Part shown: positions 5,828 through 35,967 of the stretch, one piece after another
Numbering within the stretch: position 1 is the stretch's first letter
How the letters are laid out: the number at the start of each line of letters is the position of its first letter
Source: Thecamonas trahens ATCC 50062
Lineage: Eukaryota; Protista; Apusomonadida
Reading direction: 5' to 3'
DNA length: 64,000 bases
Assembly (NCBI RefSeq): GCF_000142905.1
Contig: NW_013657676.1
Location: 600,085 to 664,084, forward strand
Notes under the pieces: generated by a model
What the model saw: the letters and a program-made list of their open reading frames with translations, nothing else
Told to the model about the DNA's origin: nothing
Databases searched by the model: none
Made by a program: the position numbers and the translations under genes

Positions 5828-8331
5828 TTACTCGGCGCGAGCAGAGGCGGTCGAGCCAGACTTGCGAAGGGTGGTGATAGCCGAGTAGAGGAAGGCGTGA
5901 AGGCCGTCGAGGCCGCGTTCGCGGAGGTAGTCCAGGTACTCGGCCCGGCGGTTGCCGTCATTGGTGTTCTCGATGGATGCGAGGTCAGGGACGTCAAATC
6001 CTGGGCGGGCAGAGTCCGAGGCGGCGAGGGCGAGATAGTCTGCGGCGAAGCCTGTGCAAGAGAGGTTGGAGGCCATGGAGAGGGCAAAGCGCGAGGCGTC
6101 GTGAGTGGCGAGAGCGTCGATGAGCTCGTCCGGGACGTCGAACAGCTGGGTCTGTTGCGGCTGCAAAAAGGCGTTGCCGCGGTAGAAGACGTTGGTAGCG
6201 TCGACGATGTAGGCATTGATGAGCAGGGCGCGCTCGGCGACCGACGGGTCAAAGTCGATGCGTGCGGCGTTGGCTGCGCGGTCGCGGGCGAGGCGCGGGT
6301 ACTCAGCCTTGATGATGGCAAGGACTCCTGCGATACGCGAGGTGGAGAGCGCAGCCGGCGAGAGGAGGCACGGGTAGACGATGCCCGGCGAGGGAACCCA
6401 GAGGAAGGGGAGGCGGAGGTCTGTGAGGGCGGTGGCGTACTGCTCGAAAAAGGCGAGGACGGCGTCCTCGAGCGCCGAGTGCGAGTTTGCGAGGGCGAGG
6501 GCGCGTGCGGCAGATTTGTCGACCCAGGCGAGAAGTTGGTACATGGAGAGCCAGTAGTTGGCGCCGATGTCAAGACCCTCAAAGATAAAGCCCGGGACGG
6601 GGACGGTGGGCGGCGGGTCAGAGCCGGAAGCGTCAGCGGCGGCGATGGCTGTGGCAACAGCGGCGGCGTGGGAGTCCCAGTCTGTGGCGAACCAGCGGAA
6701 GAGCATTGTCTTGAGGGCGTTGAGGACAGCGACCTGAAAGGCGACGCCCGATGCGACAAAGAGCTGCGAGAGCGGGATGAGGAAGCCGGTGTAGAGCGCG
6801 TCCCATGGGAGCGGGCGGAGGTAGGTTACAAGATCGAGGACGACGTCGGCGGCGTGAACACCGTTCCAGTCGGGGAGGAACGAGCCGAGCCAGACCTCGA
6901 GCACGGGCGGTAGCTCCTTGAAGAAGCGGGCAAAGTCGCGGACGGCCTCCAGCAGCTGGAGCGCCATCGGCCGCAGCGGCGAGGCGCCCCATCCAAGCTC
7001 GGCCTCAAGGCGCGCAGCGAGCCAGTGCGAGATGCGGGCGAGCGCGCCCGGCGTCGGGTCGAGGCTCACCAGATGCTGCAGCGAGCGCTCGGAGAAGACA
7101 GTAGCGAGCTGCTTGGGAAGCTTGATGGTGTCAAGCTGGGAGACGAGGTCATCGATGGAGGAGACCTGGTCGAGGGCGAGGGCCGACTCGCCCAGGCGAG
7201 GGCGGACTGGGCGGGAAGCGAGGTGGCGAGCGGCGGGATGAGGACTTCGGCGGAGAGGAGCTTACGCTTCTTGCGGCCACGGCGGCCGCGCGGGCGCATC
7301 GGGTCCGGGCGAGCCCACGAGTCGAGAGCGCGCTTGGTCTGGGTCCTTGTCCCATGCGGGAGCGCAGCCTGGGCGGCATATGCTTGAGCGGCCAGCTCGG
7401 CTGCAGGGCGGGCGTCCTGGACGGCGCGCATGGCACGGAGCCACGGGCCGTGCGGAGCCTTGAACGACGGCTTGAAGCCGTAGGGACGGGCGATGGGGAC
7501 CAGTTCAGGTGTGTAGTCCTTGTAGACCATGAGGAGAGCAATAAGAGCCGGCTCCTTGGCGACTACCTGGCGCTTGTAGATGGAGAAGAGCTTGCGGACC
7601 CGGAAGGGGACGACGTCCTCGCGCCGGGTGAGGAGCGAAAGGAGGTGGCAGACCCAGGGACGGAGCGAGTCGTACGCCACAAAGTGGAAGAGGGCGCCGT
7701 ATAGCGAGTGCATGACGTCGTAGCCGTCAAACGAGTCAAAGACGAGGACCATCCACATGAAGATGATGGAGCGGATGCCCGGCGAGCGCGGCTGGGCGAT
7801 GCCAAGGAGCATGACAGCGACCGACTGCGGGACGACCGACGCCGGGAGTAGCGCATGGATGATGTGGCGGGCGGTGACGTCTTTGATGGCGTCGATGTTG
7901 TCTACGTAGAACGAAGCGATGGTCTCGAGCGCGTCAGGTTCGAGGCCCGAGCGCCATGCTCGGGCCTTGAGCTCTTTGGCGATGGTGGCGACCACGGCCT
8001 GCTCGTCGAGGCCACCCTGCATGGGCGACTTGGCCTCAAGCGCGACCAGCAGCGCAGGCGTCGACATGCTTGTGATCCGATCAATGAACGCTTGCTCGAC
8101 CCGGGCCCGCGATCGGGGCGCCGGGAGGTTGGCAGCCTCAGCCTCGGCCGGGGTCAGCGGCACATTGCGTGGTGCGGCCTGCGACGGTCCTGCAGAGCCT
8201 GACAGCGGGGTAGTTATAGGCCGTCGTCTCACAAGGCTGTGCTTCTCAGCAGGTGTGGAGGGTGTGGTTATGTCCATGGGTGCTAGTGATGAGGGTGGGG
8301 GGAGGGCCGGCGGCGACGACGACGACGACAT
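5828..8331 (-). CDS. CENPI: Centromere protein I (Mis6/Ctf3); frame break or 59-nt intron near 7195-7265
   Basis: Mis6-family motifs 'LYGALFHF..LRPWVCHLLSLLTRREDVVPFRVRKL', 'LLMVYKDYTPELV' and, in the shifted frame, 'LDTIKLPKQLATVF..LQHLV..ARISHWL' and 'FLPDWNG'. Joins track ORFs 7066..8898 and 5828..7069. Confidence 0.8.
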
Positions 8332-8788
8332 GGCGCGTGAATCTACCGGCGGGGTTGGGAAGGTTAAGGGGAAGCAAAGGTGTGGAGGGGGTGGAGTGGT
8401 AGGTGTGTATGAGAGAAAGAAGAGGAGGGAGGGTTGTGGAGAGGTGTGGGTGTGTTGCGTAGGGTGCGGTGCGTAGAGCGGGTGGTGGTGGTAGGTGTGG
8501 CGGGGGCGGAAAAGGGCTTCAAATGGCGCGAGCTGGTGACAGTGATCAGGCACACGGTTGATCAAGACGGCGGCGACGACGGCGAAAGAGGAAGCACTTG
8601 ACCGAGTCTGTCTGTGGGTAGACCAAGGCATGAGCAAGGCCAAACGTGGGTTGTTGGCAACCAACCACCGACCAGACCTTCCGGGCAATGTGGGAATGCT
8701 TGTGGGAGGCGGGGTGCGGTCTTCGTCGAGTTGTGATGACTTTGGTGGCTTTGACTCGTCGGACGGTGGCGGCGAGGTCGGCGAGGGT

Positions 8789-10258
8789 ATGGCTGGCCGC
8801 AGTGGCAACGGTGTGGAGATGCAGAATGATTGGAGCATTCCGAACGCAGCAGGAGCCACGACGACGTTGATTATTCTGGGAAGCATGAACATGCTCAATT
8901 ATGTTGATCGATATGTTCCGTCTGCCACCAAGGAGCTGTTCAAGGCTGAGCTGGGGCTTACGGATGCCCAGTCTGCGCTCCCGCTCTCGGTCTTTATTGT
9001 TGTGTACATGTGTGCCAGCCCGCTGTTTGGCTATCTGGCCGACTCGGGCATGGATCGCCGGATGCTGCTCACAGTCGGGGTGGTCATCTGGTCTCTGGCG
9101 ACGGCGGCTGGGGCGCTAGCGATTGGCTTCTGGACCTTTCTTCTTGCGAGAGCGCTTGTGGGCGTTGGCGAGGCTGCGTACGCGACGATTGCGCCGCCGC
9201 TGCTGGCAGACGTTTTTGCACCGGCGCGGCTGCCGCGGGCAATGGCGTTGTACAACATTGGTCTGCCGGTCGGCGCGGCCATTGGGTTTGTGGTTGGCGG
9301 CTCGGTTGGGCACAGACTCGGGTGGCGGTGGGCGTTTCTCATCTGCGGCTTGCCGGGTCTGGTTCTTGCGGCGTTCTTGTGGCGGATCCGCGACCCCGGC
9401 CGCGGCTACTTTGAGCGGCAGCGCAGTGCAGACTCGAGCGTGAGCGTGACCGGCAGTGCGAGTGAGGACGGCGGCGAGAGCGGCGAGGACAAAGTGACGC
9501 TGGTGACGGATGCACGACTCTCATTGCTGGGCGGGGGCGGCGGTAGCGAGGCCAGCGATGGGGGCGAGGCGAGTCAGGCAGGCGGTCGTGACGGCGAGAC
9601 GGGCGTTCTCGTCCTGCCGTGGCTAACGGTGGCGGGCATGCTCGCGCGCAACGCGCGGTACTTGTTGACGATGCTCGGGCAGACGGCACTGACGTTTGGG
9701 GCGGGTGGAATGGCTGACTGGCTGCCAACGTTTCTGGTGCGATACCATGGGCTCACGCTCGAGACGGCAGGGCTTGTAGTGGGCGGGGTGACTGTGGTTG
9801 CGGGCATTTTCGGGACGCTCTCAGGAGCGCAGGCTGCAGTGTTTGCTGCGCCGCGGACAAAGAACGCCAACCTGGCGGTTTCTGGGCTGGCAATGGTGCC
9901 TGCGACGGCCGGAGTCTTTCTCGCACTTGTGCTTCCGTCGGCCGGGAGTGTGATTGCGCTGACGGCAGCGGCACAGTACTTTCTGTGGTTCTTCCAAGGC
10001 CCGTCCAACTCTGAGCTTGCGTCTGCGACGCCATCGCTGATTCGGTCGCGAGCGTTTGCGGTCTCGATCTTCTGCTCGCATGCACTGGGCGATGCGGCGT
10101 CGCCGCCGATCATCGGCTTGGTTTCCGACTCGGAGTCGTCGCTGCGGACTGCGCTGCTGCTTGTGCCTGTGGCGATGGCGGTGTCTGCGGTGCTGTGGCT
10201 GTGCGCGTGGCGCGGGCTGGGCAAGTTTGTGCCGCCCAAGACATACTGGCGGGCATGA
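8789..10258 (+). CDS. Spinster-family MFS transporter
   Basis: 'MNMLNYVDRY', 'PLFGYLAD', 'RALVGVGEAAYATIAP' and 'SHALGDAASPPIIG', with about 12 hydrophobic segments. Start codon uncertain (8789 or 8819). Confidence 0.88.
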   Translation: MAGRSGNGVEMQNDWSIPNAAGATTTLIILGSMNMLNYVDRYVPSATKELFKAELGLTDAQSALPLSVFIVVYMCASPLFGYLADSGMDRRMLLTVGVVIWSLATAAGALAIGFWTFLLARALVGVGEAAYATIAPPLLADVFAPARLPRAMALYNIGLPVGAAIGFVVGGSVGHRLGWRWAFLICGLPGLVLAAFLWRIRDPGRGYFERQRSADSSVSVTGSASEDGGESGEDKVTLVTDARLSLLGGGGGSEASDGGEASQAGGRDGETGVLVLPWLTVAGMLARNARYLLTMLGQTALTFGAGGMADWLPTFLVRYHGLTLETAGLVVGGVTVVAGIFGTLSGAQAAVFAAPRTKNANLAVSGLAMVPATAGVFLALVLPSAGSVIALTAAAQYFLWFFQGPSNSELASATPSLIRSRAFAVSIFCSHALGDAASPPIIGLVSDSESSLRTALLLVPVAMAVSAVLWLCAWRGLGKFVPPKTYWRA

Positions 10259-10409: not shown

Positions 10410-12044
10410 CTAGAGCGCCTCAACGCACGCGGCAAGCATGGAGAGGGCAATGAGGATGGATGCAACAGCGAGCGAGAGCGAGTCGCGAGTGGCGGCCGAG
10501 GTGGAAGATCCACCCTCGGCCTGGACCTCATACTCGTCAGACGAGGTAACGGCGGACGAGACCATGGCGGACGGCGAGTCGTTGGAGCGGGTCGAAGTGG
10601 AGGCTGCGCGCGGGATCTTGCACTCGAGGGTGACCGGGGCGACGCCGTCGGCGGAAGTGCGGGTGCAACGGGTGGAGCGGATGACCATGGTGCGGTACTT
10701 TTCGCAGACATCGTTGTTCTCGGCCTTGTCACAGTAGCGCTCGACGAGCTCGAAGATGATCTGGCGGACGTTGTTGGCCTTGAAGCGGCGGAGGACGTCG
10801 GCGCGGGTCGAGTTTCGCGAGTTGACGATGAAGCGGCGGAGGTCAAATGCGCGGCAGACAAACGGCTGGGCCTCGCCGTTGACGTCGCGTGGGCGGATGC
10901 AGATCTCCGAGTCGGTGCAGGTGGTGGTGCAGGTCGGCTCGGCCGGGCGGCACGAGGGGCAGCACGAGGTGGAGAGGAGGACGGGCTCCTCGCCCGAGGC
11001 ACAGTCGCGAACAGTGGTGGCGCACTCGGCGACCGAGGTCAGATCGCAGAGAACCTGCGGGCGGCGGCATGAGCCGCAGCAGGCCTTCGACGGGTCAAAG
11101 ACCGGGCGCTGGCCAGGCTCACACACCGGGCGGCGCTGCATGCATTTGCGGATGTTGTCTGCGGTGCAGGTGCCATCCGTACCAGGGCGATCGGTGCTGG
11201 GGTCCTCAATGCGGCAAGTCGGGCAGCATGTGGTCTCGTCAAAGGCAGGCGTCTCGCCGGAGCCACAGACACGGAGCTCGGCGAACGAGGACGCGCACGT
11301 CGCCGGGTTGCACGGCGGGCGCGGGCGGCAGGTGAGGCAGCAAAAGTTGGAGGCGTCCGGCTGCGGGAGGGTGCCAGTGGAGCAGACCGACGGCGCGCAG
11401 GTAGCGGTGGAGCAGTCGCGGTTCGACGGGATGCGGCAGCGCGGGCAGCCGGTGGTGACATCAATACCAGGGGCAAGCGTCGCCGAGCACTCGGGAACCG
11501 AGTCGAGGGCGGTGGACCGGTCGCAGATCGGCGGCCGCTTGCACGAGAGCGTGCACGAAGTCATGTTGACCATCGGCGGACGGTTCGGGCTGCAGATGGG
11601 CGAGGCCGGCTCGGTGATGCCGCTCTGGCACCGCGGGCTGCACGTCGGGCAGCAAGCGGGCGGATCGCCACGGATAGGTAGCTCGCCGGCACTGCACTCG
11701 CGCGGAGTCGAGCACGACGAGCTCTGGGCCGGATCGCAGGTGGTCGACCCGCCGCCGCCGCCCGACGGCGCCGGGCAGGTGTCGATGTTGTTTCCGCGCT
11801 TGACATCAGCGCAAGGAGGAGTGGTCCCCGACTGAAGCTGGTGGCACACACCTGCGCCGCCTGCAGCCTCTGGCGGGCACCAACCACAGGGGCGGGGACC
11901 GGATGTCGAGTCGCCCTGAGTTGCCGACTCTGCGCAGGCGCGGCAGTTGGCGTTACGGAACTCGGAGCGGCATTGAGCGACAATGCCTGCCGCCGCGGTC
12001 GAGACGAGCAGCGCAGCAATGGCTGCAAAGATGATGACCTTCAT
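10410..12044 (-). CDS. Secreted or GPI-anchored cysteine-rich repeat surface protein
   Basis: Signal peptide MKVIIFAAIAALLVSTAAAG; PSI-like 'C..C..CGWC' N-domain; about 7 repeats of C-x2-G-x2-P-x5/7-CC-x2-C; Ser/Thr spacer and hydrophobic C-terminus LSLAVASILIALSMLAACVEAL. Confidence 0.75.
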   Translation of the reverse strand: MKVIIFAAIAALLVSTAAAGIVAQCRSEFRNANCRACAESATQGDSTSGPRPCGWCPPEAAGGAGVCHQLQSGTTPPCADVKRGNNIDTCPAPSGGGGGSTTCDPAQSSSCSTPRECSAGELPIRGDPPACCPTCSPRCQSGITEPASPICSPNRPPMVNMTSCTLSCKRPPICDRSTALDSVPECSATLAPGIDVTTGCPRCRIPSNRDCSTATCAPSVCSTGTLPQPDASNFCCLTCRPRPPCNPATCASSFAELRVCGSGETPAFDETTCCPTCRIEDPSTDRPGTDGTCTADNIRKCMQRRPVCEPGQRPVFDPSKACCGSCRRPQVLCDLTSVAECATTVRDCASGEEPVLLSTSCCPSCRPAEPTCTTTCTDSEICIRPRDVNGEAQPFVCRAFDLRRFIVNSRNSTRADVLRRFKANNVRQIIFELVERYCDKAENNDVCEKYRTMVIRSTRCTRTSADGVAPVTLECKIPRAASTSTRSNDSPSAMVSSAVTSSDEYEVQAEGGSSTSAATRDSLSLAVASILIALSMLAACVEAL

Positions 12045-26250: not shown

Positions 26251-28500
26251 ATGGAGTTCAGCGAGGCCGAGTTGGCGCCACAGCCGGTGTCAGCCAGCGC
26301 GCGGGATGCGGCGCAGAATGCTGCCTTGTCTGCGCTGTTTGACGACGGCATGGACATGCCAATGGACAACCTTGACGAGTTGAGCATGCTTGACAATCAC
26401 GTCGAGTCGCCAGCTGCCTTGCTTGTACCTACCGCTGCTGCGAGCGCTCCGAGTGTGGCGGATGGCGGACAGGCCTCGATAGACGACGGCCGACACGATG
26501 GCGAGACGGCGTCAGAGACGGAGCACATGCCGAGCTCGTCAGGAGACGGATGCAGAGGAGCTGGCGACGAGCCAGCGCCGGTAGCGGCGAACGATGCCTC
26601 ACGACCGTTGCCATTTTCCGAGACTGAGCTCGCGTTTATGACGGCTGGCCAGCGGCTGCGGTTTGCTCAGTTGCCCGCGGAGCGACAGAAGGAGATTGTG
26701 GGCAAGCGCCGTGCGTGGGAGGCGCGGAAGGCGAGACAGGATGGAGTGCTGGATCTAGAGGCTGCGAAGGGACCAAAGACGGGACATGGGGGTCAGATCG
26801 TAGGCATTGTGCTCCTTGTCGCTGCGCTGGGTACTGCCGCTGTTGGCGCCCTTGCAGTTGTCGAGGTCATCGCCTGGTCGGCGTGGTCGTTTGACCCAGT
26901 TGTGGGAGGCATCAACCTCTGGCTTCTCATTGGCCTCGGCGTGGGCTTTCTTGGATGCGCCGGTGCCGGGCTGTGGCTCTTGGTCCGCCGCCGCAAGCGC
27001 AAGCCGTCAACCACCGAGCGCGATCGCCCACAGACAGCGGGCAGGCCTTTGGCAGCCCCGACTCCAGCAAGTGCAATGGCTCTTGGAGCCGGCACCAGCG
27101 GGCCGTGCTACGACATGTCTTCAGAGAGCACTGCCGATACGGCACCAGCCGAGCCTGGTGACGACGGAGGGCTCGCCAATCCAGTCTTTGACCCGCTGGC
27201 GGACTCGTCGTCGAGCGGGCGCGGTGGTGCCAATCCACTGTTTGAAGATGGAGAAGCGAATCCGCTGTTTGACCCGTCGGCTGGCCTCGCCTCAGCGGTG
27301 GACAACCCGCTGTTTGATCTTGCTGCCGAGCCCGAATATCCGCTTTCAGCCGTGGCTGTTGCTGACGCGGGCACGATGTCTTCCTCCGATCTTGTCAACG
27401 CTGATGGCAGTGTCATGAACCCGCTCTACGACGACGCCACGCCCGCCGTAGTCTTTGATCCCGATGCGGACACGACCTCGTCTTCTGATCTCAACAACGA
27501 CGCCCGGACCGTCATGAACCCGCTCTACGACGACGCCACGCCCGCCGTAGTCTTTGATCCCGATGCGGACACGACCTCGTCTTCTGATCTCAACAACGAC
27601 GCCCGGACCGTCATGAACCCGCTCTACGACGACGCCACGCCCGCCGTCGTCCTTGATCCCGATGCGGACACGACCTCGTCTTCTGATCTCAACAACGACG
27701 CCCGGACCGTCATGAACCCGCTCTACGACGACGCCACGCCCGCCGTAGTCTTTGATCCCGATGCGGACACGACCTCGGCTTCTGATCTCAACAACGACGC
27801 CCGGACCGTCATGAACCCGCTCTACGACGACGCCACGCCCGCCGTAGTCTTTGATCCCGATGCGGACACGACCTCGGCTTCTGATCTCAACCACGACGCC
27901 CGGACCGTCATGAACCCGCTCTACGACGACGCCACGCCCGCCGTAGTCTTTGATCCCGATGCGGACACGACCTCGGCTTCTGATCTCAACCACGACGCCC
28001 GGACCGTCATGAACCCGCTCTACGACGACATGGACAACGACAGTGATGGCCACGAGGCAGGGTCCGCCATGAACCCCCTCTACGACGATGTGGATGACGA
28101 CGGACATGTGGACGACAGTCATGTTGACCACTTGCACGCCGACACCGCACTGACAACGGCCGTTGACCTAGATGCCGACGTGACGTCGTCATCTGACCTT
28201 GGCGACGCTGACGGCTTCGTCGCAAACCCCGTCTACGACGACCCAGACACGGCCTCCACGTCCGACAATGCCGACACACGCAACACCTCTACTCCAACAA
28301 GCCGGCAACCGTTTACACCTCCTCGCCGAGCCCCGATCCCGCTCAGCCCGTATCCCGAGCTGGGCACTCCGTCGCGCCACTCGCGCCGCGTCGCGCGCCC
28401 GGCTGCTGCCGCGTCCGCCTCGCCGCGCCCATCGGCGGGCGGCGCCGATGCCATCCGCGCCTACCGCCCGCGCATCTGGCAGATCCACAATAAGCTGTAG
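26251..28500 (+). CDS. Two-TM membrane protein with an acidic tail bearing 13 NPxY/NPxF motifs
   Basis: Hydrophobic hairpin (IVGIVLLVAALGTAAVGALAVV; LWLLIGLGVGFLGCAGAGLWLLV) followed by RRRKRK, then NPVF, 3x NPLF, 8x NPLY and NPVY. Confidence 0.8.
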   Translation: MEFSEAELAPQPVSASARDAAQNAALSALFDDGMDMPMDNLDELSMLDNHVESPAALLVPTAAASAPSVADGGQASIDDGRHDGETASETEHMPSSSGDGCRGAGDEPAPVAANDASRPLPFSETELAFMTAGQRLRFAQLPAERQKEIVGKRRAWEARKARQDGVLDLEAAKGPKTGHGGQIVGIVLLVAALGTAAVGALAVVEVIAWSAWSFDPVVGGINLWLLIGLGVGFLGCAGAGLWLLVRRRKRKPSTTERDRPQTAGRPLAAPTPASAMALGAGTSGPCYDMSSESTADTAPAEPGDDGGLANPVFDPLADSSSSGRGGANPLFEDGEANPLFDPSAGLASAVDNPLFDLAAEPEYPLSAVAVADAGTMSSSDLVNADGSVMNPLYDDATPAVVFDPDADTTSSSDLNNDARTVMNPLYDDATPAVVFDPDADTTSSSDLNNDARTVMNPLYDDATPAVVLDPDADTTSSSDLNNDARTVMNPLYDDATPAVVFDPDADTTSASDLNNDARTVMNPLYDDATPAVVFDPDADTTSASDLNHDARTVMNPLYDDATPAVVFDPDADTTSASDLNHDARTVMNPLYDDMDNDSDGHEAGSAMNPLYDDVDDDGHVDDSHVDHLHADTALTTAVDLDADVTSSSDLGDADGFVANPVYDDPDTASTSDNADTRNTSTPTSRQPFTPPRRAPIPLSPYPELGTPSRHSRRVARPAAAASASPRPSAGGADAIRAYRPRIWQIHNKL
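27412..28029 (+). repeat. 99-bp coding tandem repeat, 6 full units plus a partial unit (33-aa unit VMNPLYDDATPAVVFDPDADTTSSSDLNNDART)
   Basis: Units start at 27412, 27511, 27610, 27709, 27808, 27907 and 28006, and differ by only a few substitutions. Confidence 0.97.
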
Positions 28501-33526: not shown

Positions 33527-35967
33527 ATGGTACGACTCCCTCTCCTTCCCCCTCCTCCTCCTCCTCGTCCCTTTCCCCCTGCTCTTGCCCTCCCCCCCCC
33601 CCCCCTTCCCTGCATGTGTGCTTTCTGCAAAGACGCGCGCCCAACAGACGGTGGTGGAGGCATGGCCACCAACAGCCACCCACCCACACCCATGCAAATG
33701 GACACACCCACACGCACGCACCCACACACACACATATGACACACACACACACACACACACTCACGCTCTAGCTTATTGCAACCATATGTGGGTGGTGGGT
33801 GGTTGTCCTCCTCTCTCTCTCTCTCTCTCTCTCGCATTCTTTCCCCGCTCTCCGTCGTGTGTGTTGGTTGACACCGGTCTGCTGAATGTGGCACGGATGA
33901 TGTGCTTGACGATGGCAACTCGGTTGGCTACCATCTGCTTGTTCGCTTGCTACCGTTCCGCCTGCTACCCCCTACCGTCTGGTATTTCACACCTCCTCCT
34001 CTCCACTAATGGGGGTACAGGCGCGTGAGGAGCTCGAGGCGCTCATGGCCGAGAAGATGGAGCTCAAGAACAAGATCAAGAAGGCAAAGGCTGCAGGCTC
34101 TCCGCCAGAGATCATCCAGCCCATTTACGACCGCTACACTGAGGTCAAGGCGGCCATCGACGGCATTAACGCGGCAGACTCGGCCCGCGAGGCCGAAGAG
34201 GCCAAGGCGGCGACGGTCGACTTTTCCGGCCGGGCTGGGTATGCCGACTCGCCGATCAACGTGGCGGCGCTCTCACCGTCGCGCGAGTCGGCAGCAGCGC
34301 GGTACACACTTGCCGAGCTCAACGCCGAAAAGGCGCGGCTGAAGGGAGCCGTGCGTGACGCCAAGGTCTCGGGTGCCGCGCCCGAGATTATTCAGCCGAT
34401 CTATGACGAGTACACCCGAATCAAGAACCTGATCGATGAGTGGAACCCGGCGGAGCCGCCGCTCAAGCCAGGCGCGTCGGCGGCGCCGGCCGAGCCCGAG
34501 TCGGCTGCCCATACGGCAGCGGCGTCAGAGCCGGCACCCGTGGCGATGGCACAGGCAGCGCCGGCAAGCACGACGGCGGCGCCGGTCGTCGCGCCGATGC
34601 CGGAGCCTATTCCCGAGCCCGTGCTTGTTGAGGTGGTGGCTGCGCCAGCCGACGACGTCGAGAGCGACGCCGGGAGCGCAACGCCGACGACTGCACAGGC
34701 GCCCAGCCTCGGTGCCGTCGCGCCAGCCGAGCCCGGGCCCGAGCCCGAGAGCGAAGAGACCGACGCGCCGGAGATCATCGAGGGTGAGCTCGAAGTTGAG
34801 GTCATCAAGCGGTTCGGCGGCTTTGCGCTCAAGCCGAGGTATGTGGTGATTGAGGAAGGCGTGAAGCGCGACGAGACTGAAGTGGTGGTGTACAAAAGCG
34901 CAGCCAAGGAGAAGGAGAAGATGCGGATCTCCGTCCTTGGCGTACACCTGCGGCCAGTGGTCGGCGAGGCCGACGGCCAGGCGACATCCGGATTCGAGAT
35001 CCTGCAGGGCCGCGGGCTGGGCAAGGGCATTGTGTTCATGGCGGCGACCAAGGCGCTGGCCAAGGCGTGGTTCCGGTCGCTGTGGAAGCTCATCAAGGGC
35101 ATCGAGAATGAGTACCGGGCGCAGCTGTTTGTGCCTCGTGCGCCCGACGGGTTCAACGGCAAGGTCCTCCACATGGAGTGGATGGAGGTACTGCTCAAGT
35201 CCGAATGGGAGTGGCGGTTCTTTGTGCTCTCCGACTTCTGCCTCGCCTTTTACGACACCTTCCCCGAGAGCAACGACGCGCTGACACTGCCCGAGGCCGT
35301 GCTCAAGGTCGGGACGCGGACGCCGACGTCAGCCTCGCCGTACGCCTTTCCGTTTGTCGGCTCGCTCCTCCGCAAGGAGCCGAGCTCCGAGTACGCGCGG
35401 CGGCACGTCTTTACCATGACCTCGCCGCAGGGCGTGCTGCTCGCCATTGCGGCGTACTCTGACCAGCGGCACGCCCAGTGGGTCTCGGGCCTCGACATCA
35501 CGTCACGCAAGGCCCTGACGACGACGCTGGAGAACGACGGTGAGATTGCCTTTCCGGGATTCCTTGTCCAGTCCGGCAAGGCCGACTCGCCTGTCGAGCT
35601 CGTTGTCCTCTCGCCGACACGACTCGCCATGCGTCGCAAGGCCGACGCCGACGCCTCGGCCTCGCGCCCGGCGGCCTCGCCGCTCTTCCACATGGACCTT
35701 GAGCTCGAGATCGAGACCGAGGACACTATCCTCTGGGAGCACTCGTTCTCGCAGCTCAAGCAGTTCAAGCGCGACCACTCGGAGATCAAGCTCGACTTTG
35801 ACAAGTGGCAGCCGGGCGAGATCGTTTTCCGCACCAACGCCACCCACGCCGTCTCCAACCTCCTCGCCACCCTCCTTGTCGAGGCGGCGAGGCGGTCCAA
35901 GTCGCGCAAAAAGTCCAAGTCCAAGTCCAAGTCCAAGTCGCGGGCAAAGTCCAAGGCCAATGCGTAG
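33527..35967 (+). CDS. Adaptor with two helical repeats, two PH domains and a C-terminal talin-F3/IRS-like PTB domain; join(33527..33529,34021..35967)
   Basis: ATG|GTACGA donor, ACTAAT branch and CAG acceptor at 34020. PH features: 'KPRYVVI...FMAATKALAKAWFRSL' and 'WEWRFFVLSDFCLAFYD...AQWVSGL'. C-terminal 'EHSFSQLKQF..IKLDFDKWQPG..FRT..VSNLLA'. Confidence 0.75.

What the first reader, a model, noticed from the sequence alone, without database searches (positions are those of the whole stretch)
26251..28500. Membrane hairpin protein with a recently expanded array of 13 NPxY/NPxF motifs
Seen: two TM helices with a very short loop, an RRRKRK positive-inside motif, and a long acidic tail with 9 NPxY and 4 NPxF motifs. 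Seven NPLY copies come from a near-identical 99-bp tandem array, and older degenerate copies on both sides keep 'NP-x-Y/F-D/E' while the spacers diverge, which suggests selection on the motif. Known: NPxY/F is the ligand of PTB and FERM-F3 domains (talin and kindlin on integrin beta tails; Dok/IRS; endocytic adaptors), normally with only 1-2 copies per tail. Inference: a multivalent membrane scaffold with almost no ectodomain and tunable copy number, possibly regulated by tyrosine phosphorylation. I do not recognise it as a described family.
Basis: partly seen in the sequence, partly recalled or inferred. Interest (0 to 1): 0.78.

Follow-up and report, generated by a model that had tools for sequence, protein, structure and literature searches.

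The report
Membrane hairpin with thirteen NPxY motifs
A single-celled marine eukaryote has a gene, with no relatives found in any database searched, for a protein predicted to sit in a membrane with almost nothing outside the cell and a long acidic tail carrying 13 copies of the short motif that animal integrins use once or twice to grip the cell skeleton, so it likely works as a many-handed docking strip, although no partner has been shown.

Summary
ORF 26251-28500 (749 aa) has two hydrophobic helices, RRRKRK and an acidic tail. All 13 Asn-Pro pairs in the protein read NP[LV][YF][DE] (4 F, 9 Y); seven come from a 99-bp, 98%-identical array. With the array collapsed, 7 motifs remain, against at most 3 in 100,000 shuffles. 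Older copies differ mostly at silent positions, and wild marine alleles keep the frame.

No homologue was found in any search, no RNA run was listed, and no binding test could be run.

It is not an integrin-beta, Sib or classical transmembrane adaptor. It has no ectodomain, its motifs start 64 residues from the membrane, and the talin-pocket tryptophan is absent from all 13 copies. Spacers are also constrained, one homologous site seems to have lost its motif, and NPLYD arrays also occur in bacterial NusA and phage proteins.

Best reading (0.45): a ligand-independent, avidity-based membrane scaffold for talin-F3/IRS-PTB-fold readers. A weak candidate reader is encoded 5.5 kb away. Kindlin and Shc/Dab-type PTB partners are unlikely if this is an apusomonad, which I inferred but did not test.

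The parts
26251..28500 (+). Intron-free ORF, 749 aa, orphan membrane hairpin protein (P0001)
   Evidence: the exact protein is on record as a one-member cluster; best codon usage of six frames, GC3 0.71
26251..26796 (+). N-terminal acidic, Tyr-free region without signal peptide, with a predicted charged helix at aa 143-171; predicted cytosolic
26797..26877 (+). Predicted membrane helix 1 (aa 183-209)
   Evidence: hydropathy, model
26878..26910 (+). Short turn between the helices, no basic residues; the only predicted non-cytosolic part
26911..26985 (+). Predicted membrane helix 2 (aa 221-245) with a GxxxG at aa 228-232
26986..27003 (+). RRRKRK positive-inside stop-transfer cluster
27178..27318 (+). 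Four older NP[LV]F[DE] motifs (aa 310, 328, 337, 352)
   Evidence: two silent wild variants and no replacement in these motifs
27412..28029 (+). Young 99-bp tandem array (33-aa unit, 6.2 copies) giving seven NPLYDD motifs; 4 variable sites, none in the motif
28072..28089 (+). Older NPLYDD copy (aa 608): 2 silent and 0 replacement differences from the array copy
28126..28143 (+). Possible decayed motif copy, exactly 33 aa before the last motif (11 of 18 bases match; best of 61 local windows, mean 5.9)
28225..28242 (+). Last motif NPVYDD (aa 659), in a diverged copy of the array unit
28306..28497 (+). Pro/Arg-rich basic C-terminal end (possible SH3/WW or lipid contact; inference)
35512..35904 (+). 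C-terminal domain of the PH-PH protein 34009-35967: weak IRS-PTB/FERM-F3-like signal; a candidate reader, not shown to be a partner
   Evidence: Pfam IRS E=0.18, below cut-off; Atlas features 0.80-0.83 to IRS/FERM_C clusters but 0.88 to syntrophin PH; fold failed

Best explanation
The gene encodes a predicted two-helix membrane hairpin whose acidic tail carries 13 NP[LV][YF][DE] motifs, and it likely works as a receptor-less scaffold that would bind several talin-F3/IRS-PTB-fold domains at once, each weakly and together strongly. Shown: ORF, motifs, their excess over chance, the young array, and mostly silent change in older motifs. Predicted: both ends cytosolic, tail disordered. Inferred: each motif forms the turn that PTB-fold domains read; valency in one chain replaces the receptor clustering that integrin and Sib tails need; the membrane patch so marked is tied to the actin cortex or adhesion sites; unequal crossing-over changes the valency. 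The organism is inferred, not tested, to be an apusomonad-like protist.
For: Motif excess. x is Leu or Val in 13 of 13, the hydrophobic residue that talin F3 buries (PMC12237089, passages). Phe replaces Tyr in 4 of 13, which F3 accepts and SH2 would not (same paper; SH2 point from general knowledge). The motif flavour, acidic run then hydrophobic-x-NPLY[DE], matches tails of two Sib-like metagenome proteins, L026 and L055. Pfam integrin-beta tail is the only relevant hit (E=6e-4, below cut-off). Older motifs versus array copy: 3 silent and 1 conservative replacement in 12 codons, against pN 0.32-0.60 in their flanks. Wild alleles: 2 silent and 0 replacement changes in the 5 motifs covered, and the only indel is in frame. 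Clustering of bare beta tails recruits talin through NPxY/F, protist tails included (PMC6450878, abstract and passages). An apusomonad has the integrin adhesion complex (bioRxiv 10.1101/2020.04.29.069435, passages).
Against: No homologue, so no cross-species conservation test. No Trp 7-8 residues before the aromatic in 13 of 13 copies, and the motifs lie 64-413 aa from the membrane, whereas talin uses the Trp and the juxtamembrane helix. One in-register site appears to have lost the motif. The motif-versus-flank contrast is small in numbers and partly chosen by the motif itself. Bacterial NusA (12 NPLYD; L010, L038) and phage proteins (7-9 motifs; L089, L090) carry such arrays without membrane helices. 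The candidate reader is below all cut-offs. The organism and its talin were not examined, because no genome is held.
Confidence: 0.45

Rival explanations
1. The motifs are sorting signals: they are read by endocytic or recycling adaptors with FERM/PTB folds (SNX17-like or ARH/Dab-like), and the protein is a cycling membrane cargo or coat nucleator, not an actin link.
For: The motifs are far from the membrane and lack the talin Trp. NPxY in LRP1 binds SNX17 and NPxA does not serve (PMC11339278, passages). Val five residues before the aromatic in 9 of 13 copies fits PTB-type sorting signals (rule recalled). L052, an unrelated multi-pass protein, has six NPVF[DG] in its tail.
Against: Shc/Dab-type PTB domains were reported only in Holozoa. 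The passages seen show SNX17 coupling only in animals. One or two signals normally suffice.
Confidence: 0.2
2. A few old motifs matter, or act only as turn-forming acidic repeats, and the seven-copy array is a near-neutral slippage product in a tolerant disordered tail of a fast-evolving orphan gene.
For: 3 of 4 variable sites in the array are replacements. Apparent motif loss at aa 626. Codon bias is weaker than in 11 of 12 neighbours. NPLYD/NPVYD arrays arise in NusA and phage proteins. No homologues.
Against: Seven separately placed motifs with varied silent codons and different spacers. All 13 NP dipeptides follow one consensus.
Confidence: 0.2
3. It is a LAT/PAG-like phosphotyrosine adaptor: a kinase phosphorylates the YDD sites and SH2 or phospho-dependent PTB proteins dock.
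For: All 13 tyrosines lie in the C-terminal tail, in acidic context. Minimal ectodomain as in transmembrane adaptors (PMC3342071, passages). Tyrosine-kinase homologues are reported in an apusomonad (PMC4053784, passage). A choanoflagellate PTB binds phospho-NPxY (PMC3082566, passages).
Against: 4 of 13 motifs have Phe. Conservation centres on Asn-Pro before the aromatic, not on the +1 to +3 residues that SH2 reads. No CxxC, and two helices instead of one.
Confidence: 0.12
4. The ORF is not a working gene (spurious frame or decaying pseudogene).
For: Singleton; N-terminal third has weak codon bias (-0.22).
Against: 2.25-kb open frame filling the space between two opposite-strand genes; best frame by codon usage overall; coherent topology; in-frame wild indel; pN below pS between diverged units.
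Confidence: 0.03

Closest known systems
Integrin-beta cytoplasmic tail (Pfam PF08725) and Dictyostelium Sib proteins
   Same: NP[L/V][Y/F] motifs behind a GxxxG-bearing helix and a basic cluster; same acidic flavour as Sib-like tails L026 and L055
   Different: No vWA/MIDAS head or stalk, two helices, no signal peptide, 13 motifs instead of 2, no upstream Trp, motifs far from the membrane; Pfam score 19.8 against a cut-off of 23.4
Transmembrane adaptor proteins (LAT, NTAL, PAG, LAX)
   Same: Almost no ectodomain, no enzyme domain, about ten tyrosine motifs in a tail (PMC3342071, passages)
   Different: Hairpin instead of a single helix, no CxxC, PTB-type rather than SH2-type motifs, one motif repeated by tandem duplication
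LDL-receptor-family tails and KRIT1 (multi-NPxY/F proteins; KRIT1 recalled)
   Same: Several NPxY/F motifs read by FERM/PTB adaptors
   Different: At most 2-3 motifs (recalled); large ectodomains or soluble; no tandem array
Bacterial hairpin or repeat effectors Tir, Inc, CagA EPIYA and Tarp (recalled, not searched)
   Same: Hairpin with cytosolic disordered tails, or copy-number-variable tyrosine motifs
   Different: Here a chromosomal gene among eukaryotic housekeeping genes; no sequence link found

Membership tests
Integrin beta / Sib | vWA/MIDAS head and Cys-rich stalk | tested here: not met
   No such Pfam hit; 5-14 residues between the helices; only about 650 bp to the divergent upstream gene
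Integrin beta / Sib | Signal peptide and a single membrane helix | tested here: not met
   Acidic N-terminus and two hydrophobic helices
Integrin beta / Sib | NPxY/F motifs in the tail | tested here: met
   13 motifs
Integrin beta / Sib | Membrane-proximal motif with upstream Trp (talin site) | tested here: not met
   First motif 64 aa from helix 2; no Trp in 13 of 13; requirement from PMC12237089
Integrin beta / Sib | GxxxG in the membrane helix | tested here: met
   aa 228-232
Integrin beta / Sib | PF08725 above gathering score | tested here: not met
   19.8 bits against 23.4
Integrin beta / Sib | Binds talin F3 | not testable with these tools
Transmembrane adaptor proteins | Very short extracellular part, no catalytic domain | tested here: met
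   By prediction
Transmembrane adaptor proteins | Single membrane helix | tested here: not met
   Two helices
Transmembrane adaptor proteins | Juxtamembrane CxxC (most members) | tested here: not met
   Cys only at aa 101, 236, 286
Transmembrane adaptor proteins | Tail tyrosines phosphorylated and bound by SH2 domains | not testable with these tools
   13 Tyr in the tail; no proteomics
IRS-type PTB / FERM-F3 domain (neighbour 35512-35904) | Profile or fold match | tested here: inconclusive
   PF02174 E=0.18; no PDB sequence hit; Atlas under 0.9; model pLDDT 36.5

The most novel reading that the evidence does not exclude
A pre-animal 'integrin tail without the integrin': a membrane hairpin that nucleates talin-based adhesion or cortex patches with no outside ligand, by carrying the clustering in its own chain, with strength set by the copy number of a 99-bp array.
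Probability: 0.25. Interest if true: 0.78.

Novelty: new variant of a known kind. Interest (0 to 1): 0.47.

Why it matters
If it binds talin-F3-type domains by avidity, the NPxY-FERM link in close relatives of animals and fungi would not be tied to integrin-like receptors and could be switched on by valency alone. It would also be a natural reagent for testing how motif number sets adhesion-complex assembly. Its value is limited for now: it is one orphan gene with no expression or binding data.

Tried and rejected
Homologues: none besides itself with aa 110-400 (near lengths; shorter) or aa 300-670; each time only about 8,000 best-word candidates were scored, and longer proteins were not searched by this tool. 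Of 1.84 billion representatives, only P0003 matched, a bacterial-looking ATPase with an unrelated repeat: rejected as a periodicity artefact. Metagenome locus search: 97 pattern hits, 0 confirmed. Atlas: no usable feature hit, all TM-scores under 0.5. Foldseek of the hairpin: nothing at E<=0.001. PDB sequence search with two repeat units: 0 hits. The Pfam GNAT hit (E=7e-6, 0 significant stretches) is a repeat artefact.

Expression: no RNA holder listed; this is no evidence either way. X1 and X3 contigs run across convergent genes, so they behave as DNA. Array copy number in other strains was not measured: reads were laid on the two flanks only. The neighbour domain's fold failed and was not searched. 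A DNA weight-matrix scan found no decayed copy above the background of neighbour genes; the aa 626 site rests on register and base identity only. Likeness of the mid-unit VFDP to the first NPVF copy was seen by eye and not tested. No whole genome is held, so no proteome-wide motif count. Earlier-finding look-ups by place, by sequence and by a multi-word query were blank. Three look-ups for two PNAS papers failed. Paper searches gave nothing on this protein.

Full report
Setting. The window is eukaryotic and intron-poor, with GC 0.58-0.67. It holds MIOS, CENP-I, a peroxisomal-type ABC transporter, heme lyase, DAG kinase and mTERF genes. The locus is held by marine and estuary metagenome runs of several studies. 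I infer an apusomonad-like protist (Thecamonas type) from these traits and from recall; no call tested this, and no genome is held. Statements about likely partners depend on that inference.

The ORF. 26251-28500 (+) encodes 749 aa between a divergent sulphur-transporter gene and the convergent MIOS gene. The exact protein is on record as a one-member cluster. Its frame scores best of six by synonymous codon usage (-0.02 against -0.12 to -0.34; five non-genic controls -0.13 to -0.45), though lower than 11 of the 12 training genes; the N-terminal 180 codons are weak, at -0.22. Wild contigs show 9 substitutions in the ORF, 5 replacement and 4 silent, and one 3-base in-frame deletion. That is too few for a test. 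24 rows's table were not shown, but the per-contig counts for the listed ORF contigs match the rows shown.

Topology (predicted). There is no signal peptide. Hydrophobic helices lie at aa 183-209 and 221-245. A single-sequence model puts a 5-residue turn between helices 180-210 and 216-249. The turn has no basic residue, there are 8 Lys/Arg in aa 150-182, and RRRKRK follows helix 2. Both ends are therefore predicted cytosolic. Which membrane is unknown.

Motifs. All 13 NP dipeptides read NP[LV][YF][DE]. Seven come from the 99-bp array. Its 4 variable sites form a gradient along the array, and none touches the motif. Collapsing the array leaves 7 motifs; 0 of 100,000 shuffles exceeded 3, and 12 other ORFs (8,644 aa) have none. 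Across the 7 independent copies Asn, Pro, x and Asp/Glu use 2-3 different codons. Against the array copy, motif 608 has 2 silent and 0 replacement differences and motif 659 has 1 and 1; flanks show pN 0.32-0.60. In the 5 motifs covered by wild contigs there are 2 silent and 0 replacement changes.

Results against the simple story. Spacers are themselves constrained (pN 0.43 against pS 0.56, and 0.33 against 0.73, anchor codons removed). The site 33 aa before the last motif matches the motif's codons at 11 of 18 bases but has lost Asn, Pro and Tyr, which points to birth and death of copies; a weight-matrix scan did not single it out. The comparison is partly selected on surviving motifs.

Relatives. 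None were found. A scan for two nearby motifs gave 84 metagenome and 7 viral loci; the pattern's codon and spacing limits mean it would have missed this gene itself. 68 of 91 loci had two or more motifs in one frame, and 7 of 91 had five or more. Of those seven only L052 has membrane helices: an unrelated multi-pass protein with six NPVF[DG] in its tail. Two are a bacterial NusA with 12 NPLYD and two are phage-contig proteins with 7-9 motifs. Such arrays therefore also arise where no talin is expected. L026 and L055 have a long ectodomain, one helix and a Trp-NPLYE-x7-NPLFE tail, which is Sib-like (label by architecture). Their motif context resembles the copies here, except for the Trp.

Mechanism. 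Talin F3 grips Asn, Pro, a Leu/Ile at x and Tyr or Phe, and also a Trp upstream and the juxtamembrane helix; the motif peptide alone binds about 8 times more weakly, 35 against 4.4 micromolar (PMC12237089, passages). Here x is Leu or Val in 13 of 13, Trp is missing in 13 of 13, and the motifs lie 64-413 aa from the membrane. Single sites would be weak, so many copies make sense as avidity; this step is inference. Clustering bare beta tails recruits talin through NPxY/F, Capsaspora tails included (PMC6450878, abstract and passages). The adhesion complex is reported in an apusomonad (bioRxiv 10.1101/2020.04.29.069435, passages), although a review says talin was not identified beyond Amoebozoa and opisthokonts (PMC10846614, passages). 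Kindlin is absent from pre-metazoans (PMC4325847, passages). ORF 34009-35967 ends in a domain with weak IRS-PTB/FERM-C signal. It is a candidate reader only, and neighbourhood means little in a eukaryote.

Comparison. It works like a beta-integrin or Sib tail multiplied, on the plan of a LAT/PAG-type adaptor (PMC3342071, passages; PMC9453864, passages). It fails the membership tests for both. I found no description of such a protein in searches (listings only, unless cited above as read); the two PNAS papers I looked for were not held. Earlier AI notes report NPxY-rich tails in giant viruses and the doubled motif in prokaryotes; they are leads only.

Verdict. A real, non-random, undescribed architecture in one orphan gene. 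The function is plausible but untested, and there are specific points against plain talin, kindlin or Dok binding. Interest 0.47; new variant of a known kind.

Noticed in passing
window 34009-35967 (+): 652-aa protein with a PH domain (Pfam 8e-9), a second weak PH and a C-terminal domain with weak IRS-PTB/FERM-F3 likeness: a Dok/IRS-like layout in a probable non-holozoan.
   Followed up: partly
window 29183 and 31335 (MIOS gene, - strand): The two frame breaks are assembly errors in C-runs: an extra C is present in 4 of 4 and 3 of 4 runs laid (the fourth does not cover the second site).
   Followed up: yes
L075:3-4424(-), L014:963-1997(-), L078, L017, L005, L022, L023, L049, L053, L067: Bacterial-looking secreted, RHS and Hcp-like proteins carry the 12-residue-spaced NPLYE...NPL[YF]E cassette of Sib-like tails; L075, L014 and L078 also have the upstream Y-x-P-W-D. 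Possible mimicry or transfer from protists.
   Followed up: partly
L026:6-3071(-) and L055:1-3075(+): Large single-pass proteins with an Ala-rich helix and a Trp plus double-NPxY/F tail; L026 has cadherin-like hits. Likely Sib-like receptors of unidentified protists.
   Followed up: partly
L052:116-2167(+): Four-helix protein with a Cys-rich outer loop and six NPVF[DG] repeats in an Asn/Gly-rich tail; no Pfam hit; an independent analogue of the finding.
   Followed up: partly
L010:2907-4421(-), L038:3-848(+): Bacterial NusA with a C-terminal array of 12 NPLYD repeats, 8 residues each.
   Followed up: no
L089:1657-3663(+), L090:771-3803(-): Viral-contig proteins with 7-9 NP[VI]YD-type repeats and no Pfam hit.
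   Followed up: no
window 5828-8892 (-): CENP-I (Mis6) lies in two ORFs, 7066-8892 and 5828-6967; intron or assembly frameshift, not checked.
   Followed up: no
window 10410-12044 (-): Secreted-looking Cys-rich repeat protein with a hydrophobic C-terminus and no Pfam hit.
   Followed up: no
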